Part shown: piece after piece, positions 1,331 to 39,600 of the stretch
Layout of the letters: each line of letters starts with the position of its first letter
Numbering within the stretch: position 1 is the stretch's first letter
NCBI RefSeq assembly: GCF_018320785.1
Contig: NC_054879.1
Location: 26,584,546 to 26,648,545, forward strand
Reading direction: 5' to 3'
Source of the DNA: Cheilinus undulatus
Taxonomy: Eukaryota
Length of the DNA stretch: 64,000 nt
Program-made: the position numbers and the translations under genes
Notes under the pieces: generated by a model
Told to the model about the DNA's origin: nothing
The model's database searches: none
Seen by the model: only the letters and a program-made list of their open reading frames with translations

Positions 1331-1354
1331 TTAATAGATCATCATCTTCAACAG

Positions 1355-2950
1355 GAATTCCTCACTAACAACCTCATGGATTGGACTTGGATTGGTCTGA
1401 GTGACAAAGAGAATGAAAGCACCTGGAAATGGACAGATGGCACCCTGCTGACTCAGGGGTAAGGCACACACTGATTTCATATTGTTGGCTGACCGCTGAG
1501 GTCAGCTGTGCAGATGCCTCTCTCTGTGTCTGAGTAAGTAACTGACTGACTAAGTGATGCTACTTTGAGAGCCCCAACATAACACAGTTGGGTTTGCTTG
1601 TACTGAATGTTGGCGGTAATGGCTGCCTCCACTGTGTTAACTAGAGCCATATATACAGAGTTGCGCTATGGGTGGGGTTTAGTTGGACTGAAAGCCCTCT
1701 AATGGCTTCCTACCTTAATACCTTAGATTTAGCTTTAGCCCCATTTTTACCAGAACTGGGACACATTTCTGTATGACAAAGAATAAAACAACCCTGTAAG
1801 ATTTTCATGTTGGGAAAGATGTTTTCACTCCTGTGCCGCCCCGCTTTGGCATGACTATGTGATAGTTATGGGGAAAGGGTCAGTTGTTGTATACAGCTAA
1901 TGAGTTGTTGTGTCCCAGCTAATAATTGCACTAGCAGGCCTGTCATTAGCTGGGACTGAGCCGCAGCTGGCTGTTGTCTGAACCAGACAACGTGTCTAAA
2001 TCCAAACAAGTGCAGAGAGCAACACTGAAAGCTTTCTGTGACTGAAAAAAATATTCTCTCAGTACTAGTCTGTTTCGGCATGGCTTTTCAATCATGGCAG
2101 TGGGCTTGTCCTGCATTGTCCATCGTTAGCTGTTAGTTTGGATGTCACAGTAGGACCGCTGTTCTTGTTCAAACCAGAGAAGAGAGCCACACCGACAGCT
2201 TGTCTTGTGCAAAGGAGAGGTTTTTGCCCATTCCTTTAGTGATGACTCCCCTTCGTGCACTAACAACACAGAATACAGAGAGCGTATTTTCCCCTCCATT
2301 TTCTAACTGCTGCTGAGTCGCTCTGTGTGTATGTCAGTGTTTAACCAATCAGATGCGGTAGAAGAAAAGCAGAAGGGGAGGAGGGATGACGCTGCTCAGG
2401 GCTTCATATACACAGAGGGAGATAGACAGAGAGAGAGGACAACATGTAGCTTTTTACATTTCAGTAACCTCTACAACTACTAACAATCATGACAAAATCA
2501 CTCTGCCAGAACACATTTCAGTCAGGCATTTCAACAGACATCACAGACAGTTGCAGTCAGCCATATACTAAGTTTTAACCTAGTCTTGTTGTTTAAAGTC
2601 TTAGCTTGAACACAGGCACTTACACAGCTCTTGGACTATATATGTGACCAGTAGATTTTCTTTAATCAAGGGATGTAACTCGGTCCCAAATCAAACCAAA
2701 TAGTTAAATTCAGTCAAAGGAACCTTTTTTTTTTCTTTATACACAACGTTACTCTTTTATTGTGAAATCCTGCTAAAGTCACCTTTTAATCTCTTACAGA
2801 TACTGGTTGAGAGGGCAGCCTGATAATGGAGGAGGACATGCAGTATATGGTGAAGAAGACTGTGCTCACTTCAGAAACAATGGTAAAAAAGAGGCGAATT
2901 GGAATGATGTGAAATGTGATTCAACTATGCTGTGGATTTGTGAAAAATAG
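1355..2950 (+). CDS. C-type lectin receptor paralogue, copy 1 (3' part only: CTLD exons 2 and 3; the 5' exons lie upstream of the window)
   Basis: Exon 1355-1458 (acag|GAATTC ... CAGGG|gtaagg; EFLTNNLMDWTWIGLSDKENESTWKWTDGTLLTQG). Exon 2800-2950 (YWLRGQPDNGGGHAVYGEEDCAHFRNNGKKEANWNDVKCDSTMLWICEK, TAG 2948-2950). The QPD, WND and WICEK motifs mark a long-form CTLD. AATAAA at 2973-2978 and 3073-3078. Confidence 0.7.
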
Positions 2951-4144: not shown

Positions 4145-4804
4145 TTACATAAAAGCAAGTGTATAAAAATGACTTTCATGAAGTGATTTAAAAGATATCA
4201 CTGATTCTGTATGCCTTATCTCCTCTGGCAGGTCGTTCCAAAGTCGAGGCGCCCTGACAGAGAAAGCCCTGTCACCTTTAGTCCTAAGCCTCGACCTTGG
4301 AACGACCAGGAGGCCCCCGGCCGAGGATCTAAGACTGCGGCTTGGCTCATAAGGGTTGAAAAGTTCAGCTAAATAGCTTGGAGCCAGGTCCTTCAGTGCT
4401 TTAAAAGTAAAGAGGAAAATTTTTGAACCAATTCTAAAACTTACAGGGAGCCAGTGTAAGGATGCTAAAATAGGGGTGATGTGATGCCATCTATTAAAAC
4501 CAGTTAGAAGCCTAGCTGCTGCATTCTGGACCAGCTGTAGGTCAGAGAGGGATCTTTGACTGATGCCGCGGGGAGGAGAGTTACAATAATCGAGTCTGGA
4601 GAAGATGAGTACACGGATGACTTTTGTAAGGTCTGCTTGGTTGGGTACAGTTTTTATTGTCGCGATGGTTTGGGTATGGGAAAAGCTTGACTGGACAACT
4701 TTACTGATATGGGATGTGAAGGTAGGATCTGAATCAAATATTACTCCAGGATTTCTGGCTGTGGGTCTGATATTTTCTGAAAGAGTACCAAGACAAGAAA
4801 GCAT
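4145..4804 (-). mobile_element. LINE (L2/CR1-like) ORF2 C-terminal fragment
   Basis: ORF with LHWLPVSFRIGSKIFLFTFKALKDLAPSYLAELFNPYEPSRSLRSS...VPRSRLRTKGDRAFSVRAPRLWNDLPEEIR. This is the stereotyped C-terminal tail of a fish LINE ORF2. Confidence 0.55.
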
Positions 4805-5534: not shown

Positions 5535-8500
5535 ATGGAAGAAATGGATGAAATCTACGCCAACATTGATTATGAGAAACCTGACAATGAAAAGACACAG
5601 ACCATCCAGACAAGTAAGAGTCCTCACTATGTCTGAGCTTTGAAGTATATGTATCATCATGCAGCATTGTCTTATATGGTTCTGGCTGTGTTCAGGTCCT
5701 GGAAGCTCATATCAGAGATTTTACAGACCTGTTGTTCTTCTTCTTGGACTGCTAAATTTTCTCCTGCTGGCTGGGATTGTTGGCCTCTGTGTCTGTGAGT
5801 CAGTTTTATTTATCCTAAACCATATTTTTACTTTTGCAGGATGTGTCATGATGTGCACTGCACAAGGATATTTGCTGAGGAAAGATGATCCAGTGTAAAA
5901 ATTGAGACACTGTAGTAGTATTTTCATCTGTATCTGTTTACTTAAGACTGATTCAATTCAGTGATATTTGTTTCATTGCAAGATTTTGCAATACAAGACA
6001 CAATAATGAAGCAGAGAAGATGTTTCATGGTTCATTTATTCTGTGAATAAGGTCAAGAAAGCACTGGGTCCATTCCCTCTTAACAGAGCCATTTACTTTC
6101 TTTGCACAAGCTCATGTGATACCAAAATATGTCATATTCTACAAAACCAGAAGCTGGAGAGAGAGGGAACACATCTGATCATTTCAAAAATGTTTTAATC
6201 CATCAGGTTTTATGATTGAAATCCACAGAATGGGCACAAACACTGTGTTTAAAGCAAGGTTTCAAGGTCGGAGAGAGTGAAAGAGAGCATATGATACAGG
6301 AGTGACCACAGTATCTGAGACCAAGACATGCCTGACACCAGAGTGCAACGAGACTAACCAAGACATTTGGGGGTAGAGACCAAGACAAGCTGAGCCTGAG
6401 ACAAGATCAAGACCATTAAAAAACATTTTAAAAATCATCAAAAGGTTGAACAGTTAAAGAACACTCTCTCTTTTATTTTAGTTTGCTTTGAAAATTATTT
6501 GGCAGCAACAAAACAAGATATCTGCAAAAACAATGCAAAAATCTAGAATCTAAGCAAATTTCTTCAAGGCTCTGAAATGCTCTGCTAGTTTTACACCAGA
6601 TTTTTAGTTTTACACCAGTATAATTGTTGTCTTGTCAGTCCACAGAATATGGACTCCATAGTTTTATGAACTCTCCCATTGATGCTATTTTTTCCCAGGC
6701 TCTTTCTTATTGTTGAATCCTGAACTCTGACATTAACTGAGTCAAGTGAGGCCTGCAGGTCTTTAGATGTTGTTCTGGGTTCTTTTGGGAACCCCTGGAT
6801 GAATCGTCAATGTGGTCTTGGAGTCATTTTGGCAGGCTGGCCACTCCTGAGAAGGAGCCGAAAAATAAATAAATCTGTAGTAGTATTAAAAAGCCACTGA
6901 TAAGTCCAGAATTGTTTTAAATATGTGAATTTTAGATGTTTATCTAGATTTGCCAGTTGAATGAGGCCTATAATAAGAGTTTTTGGTGTCTGAAACATTA
7001 CATCATATGCCCAGCCTGAACAAAATTCAGTAATGTTCCATATCATTTCATGGGAAATAAAGATTTAAAGAAGAGCTTGGTTGCATCTAAGAAAGATGAG
7101 ACTCAAGAATTTTATGACGTAAACGTGCACAGTGGGATATCAATATTATGGCCCCTCTACTAAAACCCTCTCAGGGGCACAGATGGTTCAAATCTGGCCC
7201 TTTCCCATATGTCTCTCCCCGCTCTCTTGTCCCTGTCTCCAACTCCATTGTCCTCCTCTAGCAATAAAGAAACAAAAAAAGCCCAAAAATAAATCTTTTA
7301 AAAAAACCTCTCAGCTGGTGCAGAGGAGGAAGGAACTGAAAGCACTTTCTGTGCCAAGTTGTGGAGTGTTGGGTTGGTGGTCTTGACCAATCTTGATGGA
7401 AAATACCAAGTCCAAGACTGTTATCGAGTACTACAACACTTCAACAAACCATTTATTTTATGTAAACTGGAAAGTAAGTAAACTTTTTTTAAGTAATTGT
7501 TTTGTTTTTTAGTTTACCTCATTTTTTATTTGTGATGATGCCTCTGAAAAGAAAGGCTTGGTATCTTTTCCTGCAGTTTCCTGTGATTTCCTGTACTAAA
7601 TGCCTAATCATCCACATTGGACAGAGCGCTTCATATATTTACTTTTTTTGGACAAGATCATGCAACACAACACTGTGTCATAGTGTAGAAACCAGATGGC
7701 GAGAGAGGGACCACATCTGATCAATTCAGACCTAAGCGGTTGTGATTATAAATTTTGGCCTTAATCTGTAATATTCAAATGATTGTAATCCACCGAAAAA
7801 GCCAAACACTGTGTTAAGAGTGAGTTTTCATGGTTGGAGAGAGAGAAAGAGAACTGCAGCCACTGCTCTGAATGGTCAAACAATCCTCTGAGAATTTGTG
7901 CACTGAAATGACTAAACTAAGCATGTACAATATTGTTTTTCAGTTTTTTGCCAATATCCAAACTCATGTTAGCCAATAGGGATAAATATTTTTTCTATTG
8001 TTATATTCTATGTTGAAACAATACAATAAAAGCCTTTCTTCCTCATTTTACCCTAGCCAAGAGAAATTTAGAGATACTCAGACTTAAACTTAACTTTGAA
8101 TGCAGACTGTTTTTAATTGTTAAATAAACATTTCTCTTCAAATATTTCAGACCAAGCCTCAGTTCATCGTTCATCTGCAGAGCTCTCTGCCACCAAAGCC
8201 AATCTAACTGAGCATCTCCAGGCCAAAGATAACCAGCTGTCCTCACTGACTGAACAGAGGGATCTTCTCAATGTCAGCCTCACTGACATGAGTAAAAAGC
8301 TGGAGAGACTTCAGAGTTTGTCCAAGCAGAGTGAGTTTTCTGCAGGATGGTTTCTGCTCACAGCGGTCTGTGATCAAACCACAGCGTCATTTATGTGTCT
8401 TTTTATGATAAAAGTGAACGACCAATTACCATGAAAATGGTGGTCACTGACTCCAAGTGACATTCGTCATCATGTCAGACTCTTTTACTTCCTTTAAAGG

Positions 8501-14790: not shown

Positions 14791-14864
14791 AACTAAAATG
14801 AAAGAAAGAATGAATGCAGACAGCTTTTTATTGTTAAATAAACATTTTTCTTCAAATATTTTAG

Positions 14865-15637
14865 ACCGAGCCTCAGTTCATCGTTCATCTGCAGCGCTCT
14901 CTGCCACCAAAGCCAATCTAACCAAGCGTCTTTAGGCCAAAGATCAGCAGCTGTCCTCACTGACTGAACAGAGGGACCTTCTGAATGTCAGCCTCACTGA
15001 CATGAGGAAAGATCTGGAGAGACTTCAGAGTTTGTCCAAACAGAGTGAGTTTTCTGCAGGATGGTTTCTGCACCCAGCTGTCTGTGATCAAACCACAGTG
15101 TCGTTATTCAGAGAGCAACACTATTGTTGACTACTCCCACTTCTGTTACCTGTCTTTACCAGTCAGTTTCCCTATGCATTTGTAAATCTTTTGTTCACTG
15201 AGCTCCTTGTTTTAGGGCTGTTATCTCAGTTGTAAATATCAGCATGAATTTTCATATCTGCTGTTGTCAATGACATGCCAATTATATTGTGATACCCTAA
15301 TTTAAATTACAATACAACTGTTTTAAAGAGTTCTGAGTGGTTCACTGATGAACAGTCTTGAGTACAGACATCTAAAAAACAAAGGTTTTATCTCCTAGAT
15401 CAAACTAGGAGATGGTCTTGGACACATTTTTCAATATTTGTCACTGTTTCTCGGTCTTTTCTGCTCTCTGATGTTTGTTTATCATGTTTTACAGAGAAAA
15501 TTTGCCCTGCAGGATGGAAGATGTTTCATTGTGTCTGTTATTTTTTCTCAACAATTAAAACCTCTTGGGACAGTAGCAGGCAAGACTGCAGAAACAGAGA
15601 AGCAGATCACGTGGTCATCGACATTTCTGAGGAACAG
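14865..15637 (+). pseudogene. Lectin gene fragment: neck pseudo-exon with in-frame TAG plus an intact-looking CTLD exon 1. No 5' exons and no CTLD exons 2-3.
   Basis: 14865-15044 is homologous to the 180-nt neck exon, but CAG has become TAG at 14933-14935. 15495-15637 is a 143-nt CTLD exon 1 with an open frame (EKICPAGWKMFHCVCYFFSTIKTSWDSSRQDCRNREADHVVIDISEEQ). It sits between copy 2's stop and copy 3's ATG, and no CTLD2/3 exons follow it. Confidence 0.6.
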
Positions 15638-16699: not shown

Positions 16700-19600
16700 A
16701 TGGAGGGAATCTACGCCAATGTCGAACATGATAAGACTGATGAAAACCCTCAGACCATTCAGACAGGTAAGAGTGTTCACTTTGGCTCAGCTGTTTGGGA
16801 ACATGTATTATCATGCAGCGTTATAACTCATGTCATATGGTTTGGTCTGTGTCCAGGTCCTGAAAGCTCACCAAGGAGATTTTACAGACCTGTTGCTCTA
16901 TTTCTGGGACTGCTCAGTGTTCTGCTGCTGGCTGGGATCATCACCCTCAGCATCTTTTGTAAGTCAGTTATAGTCCTTTAAACTTTTTCCGGTTGCCATG
17001 TCAAGATTTGCTCAGTATAAAGATATACACTGTAGAAAGGTTATAATTTTTATTATTATTATCATTATTATTATTATTATCATTATTATTATTATTATTA
17101 TCATTATTATCATTATTATTATTGAAAAAATTAGACAAAATGTAAGCAAGTAGAGAAGATGAAATTATACAATTTGCCCTTGATCTGTCATGTTTCATCA
17201 TTTCAAAATCTACAAAATCTATGTCTGACTGACTGAGTGAGTGACTCTCTTTCAGAGCCATACCATACAGAGTTTCGCTGTGGATGAGGTTTCGTTTTAT
17301 TTCGCTTCTGCCGACCTGCGTTTGCATGACTTTGTGATGGTTACGAGGAAAGGGTTAGTTGCTCTATTAAAACAAGTGCAGAGAGCAACACTGGAAGTTT
17401 TCCATGACAGAAAAGATGTTTTCGCTCTACTCCCGGTTGTTTTTTTATTTCAGCAAAAAAGAGGAGATGTACTGTGTGCTCTCGTTCTGTGGTAAACTCC
17501 AAATTGAAGCCAGGTGCTCTTGTAGAATGAGGAGTATATTCAAAAAACAGGGGAGAGGCCACCGGGGCAATCTTCAGGCACACTCACTCGAGTCAAGGAT
17601 TTAAGTAAAAAGCCTTTAATACATCAGGGTATAACTAATAAAACAATAACAACCACGGGGAAAGCCGACCAGTTTCGACCACGCAGGGTCTTCATCAGGG
17701 CGTGAACAAAACACTGACACAGGTGAGGTTCATTTAGAGAATCATGTAATCTGAAGGCTGAATCCACACCAGCTAGAAGGTACCAGGCTAAAGAAAATCT
17801 CAGAATGAATATATAACCCCCAATAATGGTGAGAAGTTAGGATAAAGACATTATCAAAGAAAAATCATATGAGAGAGTACCAAAGCATGCTATATGTCAC
17901 CAAATGCAGAATATAAGCTAAATTAATGAAAAGATGCAGGAGATACAAATATGCATATGCTAGTACAACATGTACACTTGCACCTACACTAATACATACA
18001 AACATGTATACATATATTCATACCTATAAACACATAAGCATCCATCCACATACTAAAGAAGTTAAGGCTACAGTAAAAATATCTATAGACTTAAGGCAGA
18101 TTTTCAAAAGAAAGGGGGGTAAGATGCTCAAAGAAGGGATGCAACTGAATTCAAACAGAATATCAGTGAAAATTGATAATGTGAGCCGATCTATATACAA
18201 TAAAGACGTACATTTTCACAGAAATATGCTAATCTTACAACAGAGAAATAGATTATTCTAAATTTATAAAGCCATCTTCTATAGAAAAGGTTTGAAATCA
18301 ATCTCCTCATTAAGGCCCAGATAAGTCATAGCACCAAACCTAAAGATCCAAAAGGTCTCTCTTTGAAGCAGTTTTTTTTTAAACAATCACCACCTCTAAC
18401 TGACTGCTCTACTATTTCTAAACCTTCTACCATCAGAAGGCTGTCATTACTTTGATGACATTCCTGAAAATGGCACGCCATAGGGTAGTCCACATTGTTA
18501 GTTTGTATAGCATATTTATGCTCAGCTACCCTATCTTTTTGACGCTTTTTAGTGCGTCCTATGTAAAAACAATTGCAGGGACAGGTGAGGCGGTATACTA
18601 CATATGTTGAATTGCAGTTTATAAAATGTTTAATCTTGTATACCTCTCCTGTTTTTAAGTTTGTAAATTCCTTTTGTTGTATAAGTTTGGGGCAGTGATT
18701 ACAACTACATTTCAGGCATTTAAAGCTTCCAATAGGTCTCTTGAGCCACTGGGCTTCCCTTCTAGCTGGAAGACAGCTATGGGTCAGTTTGTCTTTCAGG
18801 GAGGGAGCTCTTTTGTAATGGAAGCTAGGTGGCTGATCGAATATCTCCTTCAAAGAAGGGTCACTCCTGAGGATGTCCCAGTTGGATAGGATGACATGTT
18901 TAATCTGCCTGGCCTGTTTACTGTAACGTATAACAGCATGTATACCTGACGGGTCTTTTTTTGGTTTATTAGAAGGTTGTAGAAGGTGGTGACATCTGAT
19001 AGAAGCTGCTTTGGTCTGAGCTGTGGAGATAATAGTCTTTTTATATGATCTATCTAAAAAGCGCGTTGTCATGACTTGAGATTATATCTGAAAATCTGAG
19101 TCCTGGTCGCATTTTTTTATTTGTTTGCACAATAAAAGAATTGCTATTGTTTGTACAGCTTTCACAAAGGAGGTACAAATAAGGATTTGTGTAGGTGAGG
19201 TAAGGATACCTGAGAGGGCTTGTAATTAGACCTCACCATGTAAAGTATTCTTCATCACTCACCAATAGTGATAAGCGTAGACGGTCTGTTTCGGTATGTG
19301 TTTGCTGTCATCACGGTGGGGTTGTCTGTACCAAGGGGGCTGCTGCAAATGTTTGCTCAGATGTCGCTGTAAGAAAGTGGCAGTTTAATCAGAACTGGAC
19401 AACATTTCTTTTAAAACCAGAGCAAAGAGCTGCACTGAAAGCTTGTCTTGGCCAGTGTTGGGAAAACTACATTACAATAACACTGTTACTTTTATGGTAA
19501 CTAGTGGTGTAATGCATTTAAAATCATTAACCCTTAGAGGTCCACTGGCCATTTTCTTAATTTTCCGTTGACAAAATAAACCACTCAGAAAATGTATACC

Positions 19601-22600
19601 ATGCTCATGTTTGGTACAATTTTTTTAGCAGTTCCTCAACATTATAAAATGAAAATACTTTTTTTTTTTTTTTTTTAATTTACTGCATTAGATATAGGGC
19701 TTCCAAAAAAAAACAACACCCCACAGAAAAGGATTTTTGAAAATTATTTAAAATGATATATTATCATTTTTAGAAATAAATAATAATATGCTGAAATTAT
19801 GAAAAAATACCAGTGCCAGTCCTGTACATCATGGTCCACTGTCCCCTATGTGTAACATTAGTTTTTATATCAAATTAAAATGTTCTTATTTTTATTTTTA
19901 CTTGGCCTATTAACATCCAACAACAACTGAAAGAAAGCTTAAAGATTATGCTTTCCACATGAAGTGATTGCAATGCAAAATGTAGCTTTGTTTTCATGCT
20001 GTCATGTGACAAAAGTAGTGCATGATGAAATCCAGCCAGCCAATTTAAATCACTTTTTACTCGTTAGTTTTACAGCCAACAACTTGATGATGACTCTTAC
20101 AACACATGTTTCAAAGGAAGCTCTTGATTCCCTGTGAAGCAAAAATCAAAATTTGTGTCCAAAACAACTAGATATGTTGGAATAAAGTCATTCTAATTAT
20201 GTAAAAGACACTAAGACCCATGTGCGACTGAATTTTAGATCTAGACCGTTTGTTTGTTTTTACCCAATGGCTAGGTTTCATTCTAAGTTGGGCAAATGTA
20301 CCCCCCTTTGAAAACTACCATCTTTGTTTCAGGGATGAATTTTACATAATTAGGGAGAAACCCAGCAGCCTGAACAGTTTGGCTTTTGGGAATTCATTAA
20401 AGGGTTGCTTGCAGCTTATGTTGACTTCTGGGAATAAAAACCTCTGGGAGTACAGATTTGTTTAAAAGTCCTCAATTCAATATGAAAAAGAAACTGAACT
20501 CCAAAAGCAAACAGTTATTTTGATAAAGAAACATTATTCTTTGAATTATTTAAGACAGAGATTCAACTCAGAGATACTCAGACTTAAACTTAACTTTGAA
20601 TACAGACAGTTTTTAACTGTTAAATAAACATTTTTCTTCAAATATTTCAGACCTAGCCTCAGTTCATCGTTCATCTGCAGAGCTCTCTGCCACCAAAGCC
20701 AATCTAACCGAGCATCTCCAGGCCAAAGATCAGCAGCTGTCCTCGCTGACTGAACAGAAGGACCTTCTGAATGTCAGCCTCACTGACATGAGGAAAGAGC
20801 TGAAGAGACTGCAGAGTTTGTCCAAACAGAGTGAGTTTCCTGTAGGGTGGTTTCTTCACACAGCTGTCTGTGAACATAGAGCAAACCACAAACCATGTCA
20901 TTATTTAAAGCATAGCATTATTGTTGTCTACTCCTACTTCTGTAGGAAGTAGGAGTAGACAACAATAGAACTGTTTTTACTGTCAGATTCCTTGTGCATT
21001 TGTAAATGTTACGCCTTTTACATTTTCTTCTCATCAAAGCTAACTAATCTTTAGTTTATTTTAAATCAACAATTACCATATCAAATCACTGACTGCAAGC
21101 AACACTCGCCATCATATGAGACTCTTTCACTTCCTTTTAAAGCAGTAGTGCACGGTAGGGTTTCAGTCAGGACCAGCAGTAACCAACCTGCTGGCCCTGA
21201 AACCCCAGCTAAGATTAAGTTCAGTCGATCTCCCTTTTTTCTGCAAACAAACACCTTGGAAAAGGCACCTGAAGCAGGACTGTAACTGGAACAACTCTTG
21301 CTGTCAAATTCACCACCATTCCTATATCTGGATAACAATACGTCATCACATTACACCTGCCCATGGGCCAATCACCTCAGCTCATTTGAATGGCAACACC
21401 CAGGCCAGCACAAGAAACTACACTAGCTCTAGGGCAGGCTGTCAGTATCACATCCAAATTGGATTGACTGATGACACTGTAACTCTATGTTGTAACCCCA
21501 ATATTAACGTCTTACCTCAGCTCAGGGCTAGCAATGCAAGGACCACTGGCCCTAGCAGAGGAAAGGAGCCGAGATGTGTTCAAGATAGGGCTGGAAAATT
21601 AATAGAAAATTACATTAAATCGCAATATGGCCTGCAACAATTTTGAAATCCCAGAAGATGCAATATTTCTTTGACCTGAAATTTGTGTCAAAATAGCTGT
21701 TTTAAACTTTATTTTTGCAATAAAGATGCTATGCATTACATATCATGCAATCATTTTAGTGCCAGTTGTTTTAAGAATAGGCTATAAAAATGTCCTACTT
21801 TCAGTTTTGTACGTTTTTCTTATTATCTCTTATTTCTTATTAAATAAGAGAATATCAAAGCCCCTTTGATGCAACAATTATATCCAGTTTTCAACATTTA
21901 GGGAATCATTGCATATCAAATCGCAATTGCAATGTTGAAAAAAAAATGCAATTAGATTATTTTCCAAAATCGTTCAGCCCGAGTTCAAGACGTAGGAAAT
22001 TTCTGTTCAGCACCACAAAATATAGCCATACATTTTCTGAATAGAGCTGCATCCTGAACAAGTAACAAGTAACAAAGGCACAAACAGATAGTTATTCCAC
22101 GTGACATCCCACTTATTCAACCTCCTAAATTTGACCTGGAGACTGGTCCTCCAAAATGGAAGGAAGTAGAGAATACAGTACGGCACGCAAGATCAGCATT
22201 GGCCCCTGGGCCTAATGGAGTACCGTACAAGCTCGACAAGAATGCATCTGATGTTCTACGCTTTCTTTGGAGGCTCATGAGTATAGTGTGACAGAAAGGA
22301 ATAATACCTAAAGCATGGCAAAAGGCTGGAGGAGTGCTGATTCCCAAAGAGAAGGATGCAACAGACTGAACGTTGAGGGAAAAATCTTTTTCAGCATATT
22401 AGCAAAGAGGCTGTCCACCTACTTGGAGAAGAATAAGTACGTTAACACATCTGTACAGAAAGCTGACATTCCTGGGTTCTCCGGTTGCTTGGAGCACACC
22501 AGTATGATCTGGCACCAGATCCAAGCTGCAAAGAGGGAGAAAAGAGACCTCCACGTCATCTTCCTTGACCTGGCCAATGCCTTTGGTTCAGTTCCCCATA

Positions 22601-25600: not shown

Positions 25601-27925
25601 TTTGTGCTTTATACATGACGTGTTCTGGCCAAAAACTGGCACAGATATATTTTATTTTGACCTTGACTATGAAAAAGTGACGTGATTTGCTACCTTTAAA
25701 ACTTTGATCTGCTTCTAATGAAGTGTAGTTCCACTTTGGACGAGTGAATCAGTGGGATTCATAGTTTTAGCCATTTTTTTTAAAAGTTATTAAACTGGAT
25801 GCACTAGCCAGGAAGGAGTCAAGACCAGGATAAACTTCTAAAGAGTTCCACCTGAGAAAGGAAAAAGAGGCTCTGTTGTCTCAGTAGACTGTAGCACCAA
25901 ACAGGTGAAATAAGGAGAGGTTCTCAGACACATCTGTCCACATTTGTCATTGTTTCTAGATATTTCCTGCTCTCTATTATTGGTTGTTCATCATATTTTA
26001 CAGAGAAAACTTGCTCTGCAGGATGGAAGAGGTTCGAATGCTCCTGCTATCTCTTCTCAGAGCAGAAAAACTCTTGGGAAGGAAGCAGGCAAGACTGCAG
26101 AAACAGAGACTCAGATCTTGTGGTTATCGAGAGTTCTGGGGAACAGGTAATGTGTTTATATATAAACTATATATAGTTTATATATACACTTATTTTCACC
26201 TTCTTGTCCTGGTCATAGTGGCTGAAGGCTATGCTTGTCACCCCACACATCCCAAAGCAATTTTTTTCCAGCTCCTCTTGGGAGGTTCAGAGTCATTCCC
26301 AGGCCCAGCAAATTCTGGGTCTTTCCTTGGGTACCCTCTGAGACCTCACCAAGGAGGCAACCCAAAGACAAACTGATCAGATGCCTAAGCCAACTTGACT
26401 GGCTCCTTTCAGTTTGAGGGAGCAGTGACTCTACCTCGAGGTGTCCAAATTTATCAAACAAAGCTGAGTCCAGCTGCTGTCCTGGGGAAGTATTTGAATG
26501 ATTTGTAGCCATGATCTAACTCTTTAGTTCACCACCCAAAGTTCATGACCATCTGGGAGGGTTGAAACAATGATCAACTGATAAATTCAGTTTTTCTTCC
26601 AGATCAGATCCCACTGAAGAGCTTTTTGACTACTATAGTGATAAACATAAATATAAAAACAGGATCTCTGCCTTCAACAGGAATTTGTCTCCAACAACAT
26701 TAAGGATTGGGCTTGGATTGGTCTGAGTGACAGAGAGAATGAAAACATCTGGAAATGGACAGATGGCACCCCGCTGACTCAGGGGTAAGGCACACACTGA
26801 TGTTGTTGTTTCATGCCTTAGCTTAAATTTAGGCATAAATATAATGATTCTTGTAGCACAGTCATGATTATTTTACAAATCAATACACAAATAATTCTTC
26901 TACCATATACTTTTTTTTCTTTTTTAATTAATGCCCATCTAAATGAGTCACAAATCAAACCAAAAACTCAATTCTAATTTTAGCATGCACATAAAGCAAA
27001 AACTTGTTGGTTGAAATTAGTCAGAGAAGCATTTTTTTTTTCTTTACTAACAACATGAGGCCCTGTTAAAGGGATATTTCAACATTTTGGCAAATTCGCC
27101 CATTGCCATAATTCCTATAGTCTTAGTTATAGGTTCGTTTCCTTTATTTGTCGGTGCAAGCTGTTTCTAGATCTGGGGGGACTGTTAAACCAGCTGCACC
27201 ACCAAAGCTATTTTAACAAACAGAATTTTTACTTTCCCTCATCAAACTCATAAAATACACAATCCAACAACTCCAAAACGCTCTCTAGACAAGTTGTGAC
27301 CTGCACATTTACTATGCTATGGAATAATGTATAATTATGTAACATTACAAAACATGAAGCAAATACTCGGAACAATTTCTTGATTGAACCACTGGGTGGG
27401 GTGACACAGTGCAGCAGCCATGTCTGGAGTGTAGTTCTGGTTTTGCATTTAACTTTAAAACATCTCCTTCTCATAATGTTCAATGATTATTTCATAGCGT
27501 GATGAATGTACAGGCTACAACTTGTCCACAAGAGTGTTTTGGAGTTGTTGGATTGTGTATTTGATGAGTTTGATGAGGGAAAGCAAGAATTCTGTCTGCT
27601 AAAGTAGTGTTCGCGGTGCAGCTGGTTCAACGGTCCCCCCAGATCTAGAAACAGCTTGCACGAACAACTAAAGGAAACAGACCTATTACTAAGACTATAG
27701 GAATTACGGCAAGGGGCGAATTTGCCAAAATGTTGAAGTATCCCTTTTAAGTCACACTTGTTAACCTCTTACAGATACTGGTGGTCTGGGCAGCCTGATA
27801 ATGGTGGAGGAGATCCACAGTGGGGCGAAGAAGACTGTGTTCATTTAGAAAATCACAGAGGAAAAGAGGCAAACTGGAATGATGTGCGATGTGACAAGTC
27901 ATTGCTTTGGATTTGTGAAAAATAG
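16700..27925 (+). CDS. Type II TM C-type lectin receptor, copy 3, apparently intact (249 aa). It has a large TE-filled intron between the neck and CTLD1 exons.
   Basis: Exons: 16700-16766 (MEGIYANVEHDKTDENPQTIQTG), 16857-16958 (TM), 20651-20830 (neck ...LSKQ), 26004-26146 (KKTCSAGWKRFECSCYLFS...DSDLVVIESSGEQ), 26681-26784 (EFVSNNIKDWAWIGLSDRENENIWKWTDGTPLTQG), 27775-27925 (YWWSGQPDNGGGDPQWGEEDCVHLENHRGKEANWNDVRCDKSLLWICEK, TAG 27923-27925). Total 747 nt, divisible by 3. AATAAA at 28036-28041. Confidence 0.65.
17040..17125. repeat. Compound (ATT)n/(ATC) microsatellite
   Basis: The tattattatt...atcattatt tract. It explains the poly-N/D ORF on the minus strand. Confidence 0.95.
18326..19072 (-). 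mobile_element. Penelope-like element fragment (GIY-YIG endonuclease domain with CCHH zinc finger)
   Basis: 248-aa ORF containing CLKCSCNHCPKL and YVVYRLTCPCNCFYIGRTKKRQKDRVAEHKY, a GIY-YIG motif. Confidence 0.6.
22100..24420 (+). mobile_element. Non-LTR retrotransposon ORF2 (RT) fragment, frameshifted
   Basis: Overlapping ORFs carry RT motifs (IPGFSGCLEHTSMIWHQ, HVIFLDLANAFGSVPHNLL) and a C-terminal CX2C...H region (CSLCPSPASLKHIMTGC). The frame is broken across 22315-24236. Confidence 0.6.
27061..27751. mobile_element. Foldback/MITE-like element with inverted arms of about 240 bp
   Basis: 27061-27300 is the reverse complement of about 27510-27751 at roughly 90% identity. The termini are ccctgttaaagggatatttcaacattttggcaaattcgcc and ggcgaatttgccaaaatgttgaagtatcccttttaa. 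It lies in the CTLD2-CTLD3 intron of copy 3. Confidence 0.6.
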
Positions 27926-29601: not shown

Positions 29602-32600
29602 ATGGCATCATTTGAGGAAACTGAGGGAATCTACGCCACTATTGACGATGTTAAACCTGTCGATACCAGACCTCCAACCATTTGGACAAGTAAGAGCGTT
29701 CACTTTGACTCAGCTGTTCAAGAACAGGCATTATCATGCAGCATTATTACTCTTCTCATATGGTTCTGTCTGTGTTCAGGTCCTTTTTGGAAACAGATAT
29801 CATTTGATGAAAGTGAAGGAATCTACGCCACTATCGACGATGTAAAACCTGCTGATGTCAGCCCTCCAATCATTTGGATAAGTAAGTATTCAGTTTGAAC
29901 TCAGCTGGTCAGGAACATAAAATTATGCAGCATTATAACTCGTCTCATATGGTTCTGTCTGTGTTCAGGTCCTAGAAGCTCATCAAGGAGATCTTACAGA
30001 CTTGTTGTTCTTCTGGGACTGCTAAATCTTCTCCTTCTGGCTGGGATCATCGGCCTCAGCATCCTCTGTGAGTCTGTTTTACGGACTTTTACGATTGTAA
30101 ACCAAATTTGAACCTTTGCCATGTAATTTATCAAAAAATTAAAGGGAGAGCCGTTCCAGGCATGGAGTGGCAGAAAGGATGATAAAAGTCAACGGAGAGT
30201 AAGCAGGAAGCATCATCATTTCAGCTGAAAATTATCGTCATTTTTGATAGTTACATCTTGATATGTTCACCGTGCTCAGTACAGATCCTAATCAGATTGT
30301 TTATAGAAATGTTTGGAGTTGTAACAATGCCATGCAGTCAGATCCGGGTAGATTACAGCCATGTTGGGTAACAGTAACCTAGCTAGCCACAATGGCAGGT
30401 TGAATTTATCAGTGTCACAGCTTAAGCTCTACTCTGACCATGCTTGTCTGCTAGCCCTGATGATTTAGATCAGGGGACATCAACTATATTTAAACAAGGG
30501 CCAACGTTTTCCCATACAGGCACTTTGGGGGCCAAACTTTATTTAAAACCATTTATAAATTGGTCTAGTTAATGTTTTTTTGTTGAAATATTTTTATTTT
30601 CTTTCGAATTCATGTAATTTTAAGGCTCTAACAGTGAGATCAGTCTCCATATTGCAGCCAGCCACAAGGAGGCAATTGAGATATTCTAGCTGAATATTTC
30701 AGTGGCTGTGATATTGTCCATCGCTAGGTTTGACGCTAATATGTCGTGTAGTGACGGCAAAACACGTGAAGCCAAGAGTTGACAGAAAACGACAGTTTAA
30801 ATCATGAATGGACTGATAAATATGTGTTTAATATGCATCATGTTTGCTAATAATGGCTGACAGGTGGATGTCTGAAAAATGGATGAAACAAAGTCATTCC
30901 TGATTAAACTTTCAATCTTAATTGTTCCTGAAGTTGTTTTAATAGCTCTAGGGAGTTTGTTTAAAGAAATGGGAAAAAAGACACCTGAAATACTACAACA
31001 TATTTTTTCCTCTGAACATGTTCTTAATTTCATAATGATCTGGGGGCCGGATGTGGCCCCCGGACCACCAGTTGATGATCACTGATTTAGATGCTTGTTG
31101 AAGTGAGGCCGTTCAGCACATACAAGTCTCAAATCTACCCCAGAATAACTGGAACGTGGCTGGTCTCATCATCCATTCGAGGGTTTTTACGCAGTACCAA
31201 GAGCTTTCATGCTGTATAACAATGACCCACACAAATGCCACACTCACTGACATACACACACACGGATGTGCTGTTAATATAGACTGAAGGATTTCATCTG
31301 TTTAGGGAAAATGTTTCAGACTGTTAGAGGACAAACACAGGCCTGAACTCTGTCGCTGTCAGAGGGAAAATATGAGATGTTCTTGTAATCTGCTGTAGTT
31401 TTTTTTCCTGACAAACAGTTGACAGTATTTTAATATTAGCATAAATGTAATACCCATTGAAGGGAATAAAAATATCTAAGAGTAATTGACAGCATAGATG
31501 ACCGTCTCTAACAATGAAGTATGACACACATCTCTGTAGTGTGCTGCCTTATTTTCACTGGGAGAAGTGTGCTATTAAGAGGAGAGATAATATTGATCAT
31601 TTTGATGAGGGAAGATAAAGAATGTGTGTCATGTCATACCATATGTACCAAATTTGGCATGTAGCACATAGTTTCCAAACACCAAAAATGTGGCTAGTGG
31701 AGCTACAGCATGCCTAGCAAGTTCGCAAAACACTAGCCACCATGGCGAGAGAGCAAAATCATTAATGCTAAGCCCTGTGGGTGTGTGTGTATACAGGATG
31801 GCTCTTTTCCCTTAATAAATGACATCATTATTTACAAATTATTTCTATTTACTCTGGTTAACCTCGTCCAATATTAAAATTTGTTGATGATCTGAAAGAT
31901 TAAAGTGTAATAAAATTAAGAAAATCTGTGAGAGTCACAGCACTGTATATCATCAGAAACAGTGTGACTGTTCTTTTAAGAAAATTTAAAGACGCTGATC
32001 AGACAGGAGCATTCAACCCTACCTCTGTATTTCCTGTTTTTTGTTGTTGTCAGTTTTTTTTTGTCGTGTCATTCAGACATGTTAATCCAGTTATGAAATC
32101 GGACATTTCTCTTTTAAAAAGTTCCAGTCACAGTGATGGAAAGGCGTCGATGAGACCTTGACCTGAAGCTCTCTTTCTGTCCATGCATCATGGAACCATC
32201 TGCTGCTGAGCCGCACAAGCCTGAGTGGTGTAAAATCAGCCAATAAGGCCAATGTTCAGACCTGAAAGCTGTGTTGTTATAATGCCTTTACTTTTTCAAT
32301 GGGAACACTGAAGTTTATGTTTTTATTAGCATCATAAACTTTATCAATAAAAGTGCGAAGGCCAAGGACAGTCTCCTGACTCTGAATCATTTAGGTTGGG
32401 TAATTTGGATCAGTTTTAGGGTCATGCTTATAAGGCCCACTTATAATGTCATATCTGCTCAAAGAAACATAGAGTAAGCCTCATTTAGATGCACACAGTT
32501 CACCCTGTTAAAGAAATCTTTTTCTTTGTATTATTTCAGACCGAGATTCAGCTCATCATGCATCTGCAGAGCTATCCGCCATTAAAGCCAAGCTAACTGA

Positions 32601-36666: not shown

Positions 36667-39600
36667 ATGGCATCACTCATGGAAATGGAGGGAATTTACG
36701 TCAATATTGGAAGTGCTGCTGATGTCAGACCTCCGACCATTCAGACAAGTAAGAGTATTCCCTTTGACTCAGCTGTTCAGGAATAGCTATTATCTTGCAG
36801 CATTTTAAATCTCATGCGGTTTGGTCTGTGTTCAGGTCCTGAAAGCTCACCAAGGAGATTTGACAGACCTGTTGCTGTTTTTCTGGGGCTGCTGAATGTA
36901 ATCCTGTTGGCTGGGATCATTGGCCTCAGCTTCCACTGTGAGTTATTTTATTTTTAGCACCACTTTAAAAAGAACCTACAGCTTCCAGGCTTCAGTTTGT
37001 TTGACTTCCTGATAAAGGCTTGATGCCGAAACGCGTTGAAGTGTGTTTTTAGGTCAACTCTTGACCATTCCATGAAAATAAAGACATTTTAATGCTTGTA
37101 AAGAGAGTCCACAATGTAATAAATCCCTTTAACTTTGAATTACAAACAAAATTATTTTTAGAAACAAATAAGTAAATCTGAATATGACATAAAAATCAAT
37201 ATACAAATATGAACAATGTTAACGTCAAAGACAGTAACAACAAGAGTGGAGCACTTACTACAGGGGTCATCAACTAAATTACTACAAGGCCCAGCTTTTC
37301 CCTGATGGACACTTTATGGGCCAGACTTTAAAATAACCTAAAATAAAGGGGGTCAAACAGCCAGTTGGTAAGGCCGCGCCCCATGCACACAGGAGGTGCA
37401 GGTTCAGATCTAGCCTGTGGCTCTTTTACTCTTTCGTCTTTCTATGAATGCTCTGTTAGTTTTACTCCATATGTCACAGGACGAACACCTTCCAAAAAGT
37501 TCAGCTTTTGTCTGGTCAGTCCACAGAACATTTTATCAAAAGTCTTGGGGATCATCAAAATGTTTTTAATCAAATGTGAGACAAGCCTTTGTGTTGTTGT
37601 TGGTCCACAGTGGTTGGATGCCATTTTTGCCCAGTCTCTGTCTTATTGTCAAACCATGAGTCAAGTGAGGCCTACAGGTCTTTAGGTCTTCTGGGTTCGA
37701 GTTGTTTTGGTGGGCCGACCACTGTTCCAAGTTTTCTCCATTTGTGGATAATGGCTCTCACTGTGGTTCACTGGAGTGCCAAAGCCAAACCCTTTCCAGG
37801 CTGATAGATGTCAGTGTCTTTGTTTCTCATGTGTTCTTGAATTTCTTTAGATGGCGCCATGTTGGGCTGCTTTTTGAGATCTTTTCGTCTATTTGACTTT
37901 GTTAGACAGGTTCTGTTTAAAGGACTTCTTGATTCGACAGATCTGGCAGTAATCAGGCCTGGGTGTGGCTAGTGTAACTGAACTCAGCTTTTCAAATAAT
38001 GTGGTTGATCACAGTTAATCCATGATTTTACTCTGGGGATCAGTTACTTTTTCACGTACTTTTTCAAGTCTGGATGGCTTTTTGTGTTCACCCTAGTTAT
38101 CTTTGTCTGATATCAAAATAAGTTTAATGACCTGAAACATTTAAGTGTGAGAAAACTAAGAAACAAGGGAGGGGAGGCGAACACTTTTCACAGCATTGTA
38201 TATCATTAGAAACACTTTAATTACACCTTTTATACAATTTAAAGACTCAGGAACATTCACCTCTATTTCCTCTATTTCCTGTTGTGTTGTTTCTTTGTCA
38301 TGTCATTCAGATACGTTAATTCAGTTATGAAATCAGGCGTGACTGTTAAAAGAGGAAGTTCCAGTCATTGCGGGTGAGATCGATGATGGAAAGGCACTGA
38401 TAAAACTTTGAGAATATAGTGTTTACCTTTTCTTAGTGATCGAAGCCTGAGTGGCGTAAAATGAGCTGATATAATTGGATATGGTTCCAGTCTACCCTTG
38501 CAAAGCAGATGGGTTTGCCAGACTCCATGTCTGCCATCAGACAAATCCATCTAGGAAAGCTCTAATCCACAACATTTGTGGTGAGCAGACACTGGTGTGG
38601 CCTATCAGCATTATCTGGGGAGAACAAGGCTGTAGTAATGGTTAGGGTTAAGCCATTCACACAGGATAAGCGAAGCTTGTTATATACTCAAATTTACAGA
38701 CATTTCTGAAGGAAACTATACAGGTACTGTATAGAAGCAGAAATGATAACACAATGTTTTTTCTAGCGTAAACTATTAAAGTTTACTGCAGGAACGGAGG
38801 CTCCAGCCGACTGTCAAAACTCAGATACAGGAGGAACAATGCAGATTCCATCCTGGCTGTGGGACAGTGGCCCAGCTCTTTACTCTCACAGGACTTCTTG
38901 AGGGAGTGTGGGAGTTTGCTAATCCACTCTAAATGTGTTTCGTGGGCAAGGCTTATGGTCATGTCCTTCAGGGGGAGTCATGTGAGACCAAAAACACTAT
39001 TTCTAACCTATATGTGTCAAAAAGTTTGTTAACAATCTCCTATGCAGGCTTTTTTTTTTTTTTTTTTTGATCAGGAAAAGCTGCAAGAACCGTAACAAAC
39101 ATAATTACCACTCTAAATTACAGAGATGCTGATTGGTACAGAATAAGTATTGCCTTTGGACCTCTGTGTGTGCTGTAATATGGTGGGTAATTAACCCTGG
39201 CATTTTTTCTCTGCATTCTGTTGAAGAAACATTTTTCTTTGATTATTTCAGCACATCATGTATCTGCAGAGCTCTCCACCATCAAAGCCAATCTGACTGA
39301 GCAGCTTGAGGTCAAAGATCAGCAGCTGTCTTCACTGAATGAACAGAGGGACCTTCTGAATGTCAAATTCACCAACATGAGGAAAGAGCTGTCTCAAAAG
39401 AGTGAGTTCTACCAAAGCTAACTGATCTCTTAAGTTTCTTTTTTATGATTAAAGTTCATGACCAACTATCATGTCCAGCGCGGTGATTGGCTCCAAAGTT
39501 ACATTAATCACCATTCTAGTAACTTTCACTTCCTTTAAAGGGTAAAGTGAAAATAGAGGAAACACTATTCCAACTCTGTTAGCTGTTTTCAAATCAAAAT

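What the first reader, a model, noticed from the sequence alone, without database searches (positions are those of the whole stretch)
16700..16766. Conserved acidic-Gly/Glu-Ile-Tyr-x-x-Val/Ile cytoplasmic motif, more hemITAM-like than ITIM-like
Every first coding exon encodes the same tyrosine motif: DEIYANI at 5535-5613, EGIYANV at 16700-16766, EGIYATI at 29602-29689, EGIYVNI at 36667-36748 and EEIYVNA at 47755-47842. Position -2 relative to Tyr is Gly or Glu rather than Ile/Val/Leu/Ser, so the canonical ITIM pattern (I/V/L/S)xYxx(L/V/I) is not met. Acidic residues plus G/E-I-Y-x-x-hydrophobic resembles the hemITAM of CLEC9A (EEIYTSL), Dectin-1 and CLEC-2 (DEDGYxxL). It is also a YxxPhi endocytosis signal. 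This points to an activating Syk-coupled or endocytic function rather than an inhibitory one.
Basis: inference. Interest (0 to 1): 0.6.

Follow-up and report, generated by a model that had tools for sequence, protein, structure and literature searches.

The report
Conserved tyrosine signal in fish lectin receptors
The short tyrosine motif is real and strongly conserved at the cytoplasmic N-terminus of a tandem family of wrasse C-type lectin receptors, but it looks like the uptake/adaptor-docking signal of mammalian MGL/ASGR1 with a Grb2-type Tyr-x-Asn core, not a true hemITAM.

Summary
All five coordinate pairs are exact first coding exons: each starts at an ATG, ends before a GTAAGA donor and is in phase 1. 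The window is Cheilinus undulatus DNA carrying a tandem array of type II C-type lectin genes. My model at 16700 is 100% identical to NCBI 'CD209 antigen-like protein C'. The lectin domains carry QPD and WND, so they are group II (ASGR/MGL-like), not Dectin-1/CLEC9A-like.

Across 120 fish homologues the tail consensus is M-E-E-I-Y-x-N-V-E.
- ITIM matches: 0 of 107.
- Leu at +3, which defines a hemITAM: 2 of 107, and in none of the window copies.
- Asn at +2: 100 of 107.

Tyr sits at residue 5, as in mammalian ASGR1 (YQDL) and MGL (YENF). Codons vary synonymously between species, so the constraint is on the peptide.

Best reading, all inferred: a Tyr5-type YxxPhi internalisation signal that, once phosphorylated in its EEIY context, becomes a pYxN(V) docking site for Grb2-family adaptors. 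Whether the receptor activates or inhibits cannot be deduced. This is a new member of a known kind, of modest interest.

The parts
16700..16766 (+). Gene 2, coding exon 1: MEGIYANVEHDKTDENPQTIQT, the N-terminal cytoplasmic tail with Tyr5 (Y-A-N-V)
   Evidence: ATG to GTAAGA donor, phase 1. It is part of a 248-aa model 100% identical to NCBI CD209 antigen-like protein C of Cheilinus undulatus.
16857..16958 (+). Gene 2, exon 2: juxtamembrane RRFYRP plus an uncharged transmembrane anchor, VALFLGLLSVLLLAGIITLSIF
   Evidence: AG/GT borders and reading frame. There is no charged residue in the membrane segment, so no FcR-gamma/DAP12-type pairing signature (read directly from the sequence).
20651..20830 (+). 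Gene 2, exon 3: neck (stalk) region between the membrane anchor and the lectin domain
   Evidence: The exon is conserved among the paralogues.
26004..27925 (+). Gene 2, three lectin-domain exons (26004-26146, 26681-26784, 27775-27925) carrying QPD and WND
   Evidence: Pfam Lectin_C, E=1.6e-20. Best matches among solved structures are DEC-205, mannose receptor, mincle, DC-SIGNR, langerin, MGL and ASGR1. QPD and WND were read.
5535..5613 (+). Gene 1, coding exon 1: MEEMDEIYANIDYEKPDNEKTQTIQT (Y-A-N-I, with a second Tyr at +5). The gene spans 5535-12214.
   Evidence: It maps to NCBI protein P0002 exon by exon.
29602..29689 (+). Gene 3 (truncated copy), exon 1: MASFEETEGIYATIDDVKPVDTRPPTIWT (Y-A-T-I, Asn at +2 lost)
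   Evidence: No lectin-domain exons lie downstream and no annotated protein was found.
29780..29881 (+). Gene 3, duplicated in-frame exon '1b': PFWKQISFDESEGIYATIDDVKPADVSPPIIWI, a second copy of the motif
   Evidence: AG acceptor, GTAAGT donor, 102 nt so it preserves the phase, and no stop codon. Whether it is spliced in is unknown.
36667..36748 (+). Gene 4, coding exon 1: MASLMEMEGIYVNIGSAADVRPPTIQT (Y-V-N-I). The gene spans 36667-43739.
   Evidence: It maps to NCBI protein P0018.
47755..47842 (+). Gene 5, coding exon 1: MASFHKTEEIYVNAEDIKPVDIRPPTIQT (Y-V-N-A). The gene spans 47755-55466.
   Evidence: It maps to NCBI protein P0006.
1352..2947 (+). Last two lectin-domain exons of an upstream paralogue (gene 0). 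Its first exon, MAEMQEIYANIEDE, lies outside the window.
   Evidence: Exact peptide matches to NCBI protein P0022.
14822..15637 (+). Pseudogene fragment: a neck exon with an in-frame stop, plus a first lectin-domain exon
   Evidence: tblastn with P0006.

Best explanation
The motif is the conserved N-terminal cytoplasmic tyrosine signal of a teleost family of type II, group II (ASGR/MGL/CD209-like, QPD-type) C-type lectin receptors. Here the family is present as a tandem array in the humphead wrasse. The family consensus is M-E-E-I-Y5-x-N-V/I-E.

It most likely works in two ways.
(1) Unphosphorylated, Y-x-x-V/I about 30 residues from the membrane acts as a YxxPhi clathrin/AP-2 internalisation signal. 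Tyr5 of mammalian ASGR1 (YQDL) and MGL/CLEC10A (YENF) does the same.
(2) After receptor clustering, the Tyr is phosphorylated. It sits in the acidic-acidic-Ile context that I recall as favoured by Src-family kinases. It then becomes a pY-x-N-(V) docking site for a Grb2-family SH2 adaptor (Grb2, Gads or Grap), which couples the receptor to Ras/ERK or other Grb2-borne effectors.

The membrane anchor has no charged residue, so the receptor must signal through its own tail.

Shown here: the exon and gene structure, the identity of the family, the conservation pattern, and the failure to fit ITIM and YxxL. Inferred: AP-2 binding, phosphorylation, the Grb2 partner, and the sign of the signal.
For: Gene model and identity. 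Group II lectin domain with QPD and WND; the profile-profile match to mammalian MGL/ASGR lectin domains has E=3.9e-41.

Conservation in 107 homologues: E/D at -3 in 100, E/D at -2 in 94, Ile at -1 in 92, Asn at +2 in 100, Val or Ile at +3 in 84.

Entropy: Asn7 0.32 bit, Glu2 0.71, Ile4 0.73, against 2-3.4 bits for most of the rest of the tail.

Codons for E, I, Y, N and V vary synonymously between wrasse, bass, mackerel and cichlid, so the constraint is on the peptide.

All four annotated intact genes in the window, plus the upstream paralogue, keep Asn at +2. The only copies that lost it (YATI) belong to the truncated, unannotated gene 3.

Of the ten full-family sequences that lost the Tyr, six have also lost the Asn.

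IYxN[VIF] also occurs in Cypriniformes, Characiformes (DIYENF), Osmeriformes and Gadiformes.

Mammalian MGL/ASGR1 tails read M-x-x-x-Y5-E-[N/D/K]-[F/L]. YENF and YQDL are endocytosis motifs, and Y5 phosphorylation is needed for internalisation and signalling (PMC7404283).

YXN, YVNV and YENL are classical Grb2 sites (PMC2194190). The Grb2 SH2 domain prefers pYXNV, and an N-to-D change at +2 abolishes binding (PMC5302901).
Against: There is no experimental datum for any fish member. Literature searches found nothing on this motif.

Profile-profile alignment does not align the tails of fish and mammalian proteins, and Pfam Lectin_N is not detected in the fish protein. Equating the motif with mammalian Tyr5 therefore rests on position only.

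Gene 5 and 9 of 107 homologues have Ala at +3, which is poor for AP-2.

A review links the mammalian YENF motif to Syk rather than Grb2.

Glu at position 2 may be partly explained by the G at +4 of the start context (ATGG in all five).
Confidence: 0.5

Rival explanations
1. It is only a YxxPhi endocytosis or sorting signal, read by AP-2 mu2 without phosphotyrosine signalling, as classically described for ASGR1 Tyr5.
For: The Tyr is at residue 5, as in ASGR1 and MGL. The lectin domain is a QPD-type endocytic one. Position +3 is hydrophobic (L, I, V, M or F) in 88 of 107. YQDL and YENF are called endocytosis motifs.
Against: It does not explain why Asn at +2 (100 of 107) and Glu-Glu-Ile upstream are better conserved than the Phi position itself (entropy 0.32-1.04 against 1.56 bits). 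Ala at +3 is tolerated in gene 5 and in 9 homologues while Asn is kept.
Confidence: 0.22
2. One reading: a hemITAM-like motif that recruits Syk through its tandem SH2 domains from clustered receptors and activates the cell, as in CLEC9A (EEIYxSL), Dectin-1 and CLEC-2.
For: An upstream E-E-I-Y also occurs in CLEC9A (MHEEEIYRSLQWD). One review describes MGL's YENF as a hemITAM and links it to Src/Syk, PLC-gamma-2, ERK and CREB (PMC7404283). Three of the five listed copies have Ile at +3.
Against: The defining YxxL is missing. No window copy has Leu at +3, and only 2 of 107 homologues do; Val dominates with 70. The tri-acidic DED/EEE run is reduced to one or two acidic residues in the window copies. 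The lectin domain is group II with Ca/sugar ligands, not group V. The conserved Asn at +2 plays no part in any hemITAM definition.
Confidence: 0.15
3. It is a docking site for another SH2 protein that gives inhibition or modulation. Candidates are Csk (pY-[A/S/T]-[N/K/R/Q]-[V/I/M]) or SAP/EAT-2 (the motif resembles the ITSM TIYAQV of SLAM). The candidate motifs are recalled from my own knowledge, not tested.
For: Y-A-N-V/I fits the recalled Csk SH2 preference. E-I-Y-A-N-V differs from the SLAM ITSM T-I-Y-A-Q-V at two positions. Grb2 sites themselves can serve inhibition, as in CD22 pYENV.
Against: Position +1 is variable (A 44, V 24, E 9, and others), whereas Csk would want a small residue there. 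Thr at -2, which defines the ITSM, is replaced by Glu, Asp or Gly. There is no direct evidence.
Confidence: 0.1
4. The conservation is not due to a peptide signal at all. It reflects nucleotide-level constraints (start-codon context, 5' regulatory sequence) or N-terminal processing of Met-Glu termini.
For: All five starts are ATGG. Exon 1 and its non-coding flanks are similarly conserved among the window paralogues (75% mean identity).
Against: Synonymous third-base differences at the E, I, Y, N and V codons between species, with unchanged amino acids. In three wrasse genes the motif has moved to residues 8-11 behind an extended N-terminus and is still kept. Conservation holds across several teleost orders.
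Confidence: 0.03

Closest known systems
Tyr5 motif of mammalian macrophage galactose lectin MGL/CLEC10A (YENF; YENL in other mammals)
   Same: Both are type II group II lectins with a QPD galactose-type domain. Both have Tyr at residue 5, Asn at +2 and a hydrophobic residue at +3. Several primates, including human, have a second Tyr at +5 (MTRTYENFQY), like fish MEEIYANVEY. The mammalian motif is described as an endocytic motif and a signalling tyrosine. A characiform homologue even reads DIYENF.
   Different: Fish have acidic-acidic-Ile upstream where mammals have T/K-x-T/K. Fish have Val or Ile at +3 where mammals have Phe or Leu. Asn at +2 is near-invariant in fish but is N, D or K in mammalian MGL/ASGR1. 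Pfam Lectin_N is present in the mammalian proteins but not detected in the fish protein. The tails do not align in profile-profile comparison.
ASGR1 (hepatic lectin H1) Tyr5 internalisation signal, YQDL
   Same: The position at residue 5 of a type II QPD-type lectin receptor, and the YxxPhi form.
   Different: ASGR1 has Asp at +2 and Leu at +3, with no acidic-Ile context.
Grb2-family SH2 docking sites pYxN: LAT YVNV/YENL, CD22 YENV
   Same: Y-[A/V]-N-[V/I] matches the 'classical' YXN motif and the preferred pYXNV. Asn at +2 is the best-conserved flanking residue.
   Different: Those sites lie in adaptors or type I receptors and are usually several per tail. Here there is a single site at the extreme N-terminus of a lectin receptor. 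Binding has not been tested.
hemITAM of CLEC9A, Dectin-1 and CLEC-2
   Same: A single Tyr near the N-terminus of a type II lectin-like receptor, with acidic residues upstream. CLEC9A shares E-E-I-Y.
   Different: A hemITAM requires YxxL. Here +3 is Val, Ile or Ala. hemITAM receptors are group V, non-Ca lectin-like domains; these are group II with QPD and WND.

Membership tests
ITIM | [S/I/V/L]-x-Y-x-x-[I/V/L]: a hydrophobic residue or Ser at -2 | tested here: not met
   Position -2 is Gly or Glu in all window copies. 0 of 107 homologues fit.
hemITAM | A single cytoplasmic YxxL (ExYxxL / DEDGYxxL) | tested here: not met
   Position +3 is I, V, I, I, I and A in the six window copies. Leu occurs in 2 of 107 homologues and Val in 70. 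Definitions come from the PMC9287148 abstract and PMC2562446.
hemITAM | An acidic cluster just upstream of the Tyr | tested here: inconclusive
   The family consensus is E-E-I-Y (two acidic residues). The window copies have DE, EG, EG, EG and EE. This is weaker than the DED or EEE of the mammalian receptors.
hemITAM | Carried by a group V (NK-complex, Dectin-1 cluster) lectin-like domain that lacks Ca/sugar ligands | tested here: not met
   QPD and WND are present in every paralogue. The best structural relatives are group II and group VI lectins.
hemITAM | The phosphorylated motif recruits Syk through both SH2 domains | not testable with these tools
   This needs a phosphopeptide pull-down or Syk-deficient cells.
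YxxPhi AP-2 sorting signal | Tyr with a bulky hydrophobic residue (L/I/M/F/V) at +3 | tested here: met
   Met in 4 of the 5 listed exons; gene 5 has Ala. Met in 88 of 107 homologues.
YxxPhi AP-2 sorting signal | The motif is cytosolic and at least about 7 residues from the membrane | tested here: met
   In gene 2, Tyr5 lies about 30 residues before the anchor, which starts near residue 35. The distance rule is from my own knowledge.
Grb2-family SH2 site (pYxN) | Asn at +2 | tested here: met
   Met in 4 of the 5 listed exons, and in all four annotated intact genes plus the upstream paralogue. Only the truncated gene 3 has Thr. Met in 100 of 107 homologues. Motif definition.
Grb2-family SH2 site (pYxN) | The Tyr is phosphorylated in vivo and binds the SH2 domain | not testable with these tools
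   No phosphoproteomic or binding data are available.
Hepatic-lectin family (ASGR1/ASGR2/MGL) | A type II receptor with a QPD/WND lectin domain homologous to ASGR/MGL | tested here: met
   hhalign of fish against mammalian MGL/ASGR profiles gives probability 100% and E=3.9e-41 over the lectin domain. QPD and WND.
Hepatic-lectin family (ASGR1/ASGR2/MGL) | The N-terminal 'Lectin_N' region (Pfam PF03954) and an alignable tail | tested here: not met
   Only Lectin_C was found at E<=0.01, whereas the mammalian proteins carry PF03954. The tails are not aligned by hhalign. The match of Tyr at residue 5 is positional only.
CD209/DC-SIGN (the NCBI automatic name) | A mannose-type EPN motif in the lectin domain (own knowledge) | tested here: not met
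   All paralogues read QPD. The name is an automatic label.

The most novel reading that the evidence does not exclude
Teleost group II lectin receptors carry a self-contained signalling module, EEIY-x-N-V: a tyrosine-kinase substrate site fused to a Grb2-family docking site. This would be a further way for C-type lectin receptors to signal, distinct from hemITAM/Syk, ITIM/SHP and FcR-gamma pairing. Because mammalian MGL keeps Y-E-N-F/L at the same residue, the same logic could reinterpret MGL's 'hemITAM-like' YENF as an ancestral Grb2 site that is older than the split of ray-finned fish and tetrapods.
Probability: 0.3. Interest if true: 0.5.

Novelty: new member of a known kind. Interest (0 to 1): 0.3.

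Why it matters
Fish genomes hold large tandem families of these lectin receptors. They are named only by automatic similarity (CD209-like, CLEC4E-like, CLEC10A-like), which suggests signalling modes they do not have. These receptors have no EPN motif, no charged anchor for FcR-gamma, no ITIM and no YxxL.

Recognising a near-invariant EEIY-x-N-V tail gives a concrete, testable hypothesis for how they internalise ligands and signal. It also gives a simple sequence rule for sorting signalling-competent paralogues from those that have lost the Tyr (13 of 120 in this sample). Finally, it offers an evolutionary angle on the debated role of Tyr5 (YENF) in human MGL, a target for vaccine delivery.

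Tried and rejected
- **Tail alignment.** Profile-profile alignment of fish against mammalian MGL/ASGR families was meant to show homology of the tails. Only the lectin domain aligned.
- **Exhaustive representative search with the gene 2 protein.** The top hits were mostly multi-domain mannose-receptor-like proteins. Only the short hits were useful, for taxonomic breadth.
- **Literature searches** for a fish hemITAM, CD209 tail motif, illr genes or the literal peptide found no description of this motif.
- **DNA alignment of the six exon-1 copies.** The paralogues are too similar in their non-coding flanks (75%) to separate peptide from nucleotide constraint. Codons from three other species were used instead.
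- **Search for an annotated product of gene 3.** None was found, so the double-motif tail remains hypothetical.
- **Tandem Repeats Finder at score 150** returned nothing.
- **Pfam scan of seven long ORFs** gave only a weak reverse-transcriptase hit.
- **Readings rejected.** ITIM: 0 of 107 fit. ITSM: no Thr at -2. FcR-gamma/DAP12 pairing: no charged residue in the anchor. The CD209 identity: QPD, not EPN.
Full report
**What is there**

The window is eukaryotic, teleost DNA. At 16700-16766 an ATG opens the reading frame MEGIYANVEHDKTDENPQTIQT, which ends at a GTAAGA donor. Joining it to five downstream exons with AG/GT borders gives a 747-nt ORF of 248 aa. The exons are 16857-16958, 20651-20830, 26004-26146, 26681-26784 and 27775-27925. 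The protein has a short cytoplasmic tail, an uncharged membrane anchor, a neck (stalk) region and one C-type lectin domain (Pfam Lectin_C, E=1.6e-20). It is 100% identical to NCBI 'CD209 antigen-like protein C' of Cheilinus undulatus, the humphead wrasse.

Each runs from an ATGG start to a GTAAGA donor and is in phase 1. Three of them map exon by exon to further NCBI proteins of the same fish:
- P0002, gene 1, 5535-12214
- P0018, gene 4, 36667-43739
- P0006, gene 5, 47755-55466

A sixth paralogue ends at 1352-2947. Its first exon (MAEMQEIYANIEDE) lies upstream of the window.

The copy at 29602 is different:
- It is followed by an in-frame duplicated exon (29780-29881) carrying a second EGIYATIDDVKP.
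- A membrane-anchor exon and a neck exon follow, but no lectin-domain exons.
- No annotated protein corresponds to it. It is probably a truncated copy.

A further pseudogene fragment lies at 14822-15637.

**What kind of receptor**

Every paralogue has QPD and WND in the long loop of the lectin domain. These are the Ca/galactose-type ligands of group II receptors such as ASGR and MGL. This differs from the EPN of CD209 and mincle, and from group V receptors, which lack such ligands (own knowledge of the families). The best matches among solved structures are DEC-205, mannose receptor, mincle, DC-SIGNR, langerin, MGL and ASGR1. A profile of 46 fish homologues matches a profile of 35 mammalian MGL/ASGR proteins at E=3.9e-41 over the lectin domain. 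The anchors of all paralogues lack charged residues (read), so there is no sign of pairing with FcR-gamma or DAP12. The NCBI names (CD209-like, CLEC4E-like) are automatic labels.

**The motif across species**

Of the 120 best homologues, all from teleosts, 107 have an N-terminal Tyr, and 95 of those have it at residue 5. Counts around the Tyr:

| Position | Residue | Count (of 107) |
|---|---|---|
| -3 | Glu/Asp | 100 |
| -2 | Glu/Asp | 94 |
| -2 | Gly | 7 |
| -1 | Ile | 92 |
| +2 | Asn | 100 |
| +3 | Val | 70 |
| +3 | Ile | 14 |
| +3 | Ala | 9 |
| +3 | Leu | 2 |
| +4 | Glu/Asp | 91 |
| +5 | Tyr | 50 |

In the 95 sequences with Tyr5, the entropy values are:

| Position | Entropy (bits) |
|---|---|
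| Asn7 | 0.32 |
| Glu2 | 0.71 |
| Ile4 | 0.73 |
| Glu3 | 1.04 |
| Val8 | 1.56 |
| most of the rest of the tail | 2-3.4 |

Further points:
- **Codons.** Codons differ synonymously between wrasse, largemouth bass, chub mackerel and a cichlid (GAA/GAG, ATC/ATT, TAT/TAC, AAT/AAC, GTT/GTC) while the peptide stays the same. Selection therefore acts on the peptide.
- **Taxonomic breadth.** More divergent relatives from Cypriniformes, Characiformes, Osmeriformes and Gadiformes also carry IYxN[V/I/F]. The motif is teleost-wide.
- **Loss of the Tyr.** Thirteen of the 120 lack a Tyr in the usual place. Three of these have unrelated N-termini and one (P0074) starts directly at MYANIEYD. Ten sequences have replaced Tyr5 with Ser, Asn, Cys or His (one of them has a Tyr further along, so one search counts it among the 107). 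Six of these ten have also lost the Asn.
- **Window copies.** Within the window, the four annotated intact genes and the upstream paralogue all keep Asn at +2. Only the truncated gene 3 has Thr.

The ITIM is correctly excluded: 0 of 107 fit. The YxxPhi form is met by 4 of the 5 listed exons and 88 of 107 homologues.

The hemITAM reading fails its defining feature. hemITAMs are single YXXL motifs (PMC9287148 abstract). CLEC9A's motif is described as EXYXXL within MHEEEIYRSLQWD (PMC2562446). No window copy has Leu at +3, and only 2 of 107 homologues do. The receptors are also not group V. The shared E-E-I-Y is better read as a kinase context. By my own recollection, acidic residues with Ile at -1 are the classic Src-family substrate preference. 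The only related datum I retrieved is that EEEIYFFF is an optimal peptide substrate for the tyrosine kinase CSK (PMC11048185).

- YVNV and YENL of LAT are 'classical Grb2-binding motifs (YXN)' (PMC2194190).
- Grb2's SH2 domain has 'a preference for pYXNV', and N830D in CD22 abolishes binding (PMC5302901).

**Closest mammalian counterpart**

My recalled human CLEC10A sequence proved 100% identical to the database entry. The N-termini of 120 mammalian MGL/ASGR1 proteins read M-x-x-x-Y5-E-[N/D/K]-[F/L]-Q. A review states that YENF (MGL) and YQDL (ASGR1) are endocytosis motifs and that Y5 phosphorylation is required for internalisation and signalling. It adds that YENF has also been described as a hemITAM feeding a Src/Syk, PLC-gamma-2, ERK, CREB and IL-10 pathway (PMC7404283).

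The fish motif shares the residue number, the Asn, a hydrophobic +3 and often a second Tyr at +5 (MEEIYANVEY against MTRTYENFQY). Homology of the tails could not be shown. hhalign aligns only the lectin domain, and Pfam Lectin_N is not detected in the fish protein.

**Most likely mechanism (inferred)**

The motif is probably a Tyr5-type YxxPhi internalisation signal. On phosphorylation it would become a pYxN(V) docking site for Grb2-family adaptors. The sign of the output cannot be read from the sequence, because CD22's pYENV-Grb2 site serves inhibition.

The rivals are a pure endocytosis signal, a degenerate hemITAM coupled to Syk, a Csk or SAP-type site, and non-peptide constraints. They are weighed in the report sections above. 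None is excluded without binding experiments.

**Verdict**

The motif is real, strongly conserved and apparently undescribed: no paper in the searchable library mentions it. It is still an instance of known kinds of short tyrosine signals on a known receptor class. I rate it a new member of a known kind, of modest interest.

Noticed in passing
window 29780-29881 (with 29602-29689): Gene 3 has an in-frame tandem duplication of the first-exon sequence, bounded by AG and GTAAGT. If spliced in, the tail would carry two EGIYATIDDVKP motifs about 34 residues apart. Double or multiple IY motifs also occur in homologues from other fish: Anoplopoma P0036/P0058 (MEEIYANVEY...MEEIYVNAEY) and Osmerus P0300 (four or more DDIYAxPDMTQKVK repeats). 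Exon-1 duplication therefore seems recurrent.
   Followed up: partly
window 29602-32700: Gene 3 has exons 1, 1b, 2 and 3 but no lectin-domain exons before gene 4 starts at 36667. No annotated protein matches it. It is either a truncated pseudogene or a set of alternative 5' exons for gene 4. It is also the only copy with Thr instead of Asn at +2.
   Followed up: partly
window 16884-16895 and the equivalent sites in genes 1, 3 and 5: A second cytoplasmic Tyr sits right at the membrane border (RRFYRPV, QRFYRPV, GRFYRPV, RRSYRLV). Most other percomorphs have His here (RRFHGAV), but Tyr occurs in the wrasses and in a few other fishes. It has the form YxxV but is probably too close to the membrane for AP-2.
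   Followed up: no
family-wide; window 5565-5576 (gene 1 only): Half of the homologues have a second Tyr five residues after the first, followed by x-K-P (VEYDKP / IDYEKP). This has the YxxP form favoured by Crk/Nck/Abl-type SH2 domains (own knowledge). In the window only gene 1 keeps it; the others have His, Asp or Ser.
   Followed up: no
window 5535, 29602, 36667, 47755: Several wrasse paralogues have an N-terminal extension, so the Tyr is at residue 8-11 instead of 5. In genes 3 and 5 the ancestral start codon is ACT (Thr) and an upstream ATG (MASF...) is used. In genes 1 and 4 both ATGs are present, so the true start is ambiguous, but the motif is included either way.
   Followed up: partly
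window 14822-15637: A pseudogene fragment of the same family lies between genes 1 and 2. It consists of a neck exon with an in-frame stop and an intact-looking first lectin-domain exon.
   Followed up: partly
window 22315-24236 (+), 18326-19072 (-), 4145-4804 (-), 44235-44792 (-): Long ORFs that look like transposable-element remnants lie in introns and intergenic DNA. 22315-22806 gives a weak reverse-transcriptase hit (RVT_1, E=1.4e-6, below the curated cut-off). The 22-26 kb G+C-rich block in intron 3 explains why gene 2 is longer than its paralogues. The others gave no Pfam hit.
   Followed up: partly
window 60106-60600 and 61511-62029 (- strand): Two ORFs of 164 and 172 aa on the minus strand lie downstream of the lectin array. 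The second looks like a multi-pass membrane protein. Neither has a Pfam match at E<=0.001, and their identity is unknown.
   Followed up: partly
window 59000-59750: A purine-rich stretch (A about 45%, C about 10%) of degenerate short repeats (GTGGCAAAAA / AATGGG-like) produces the strong GC and AT skew seen in the composition profile. Tandem Repeats Finder at score 150 did not report it.
   Followed up: no
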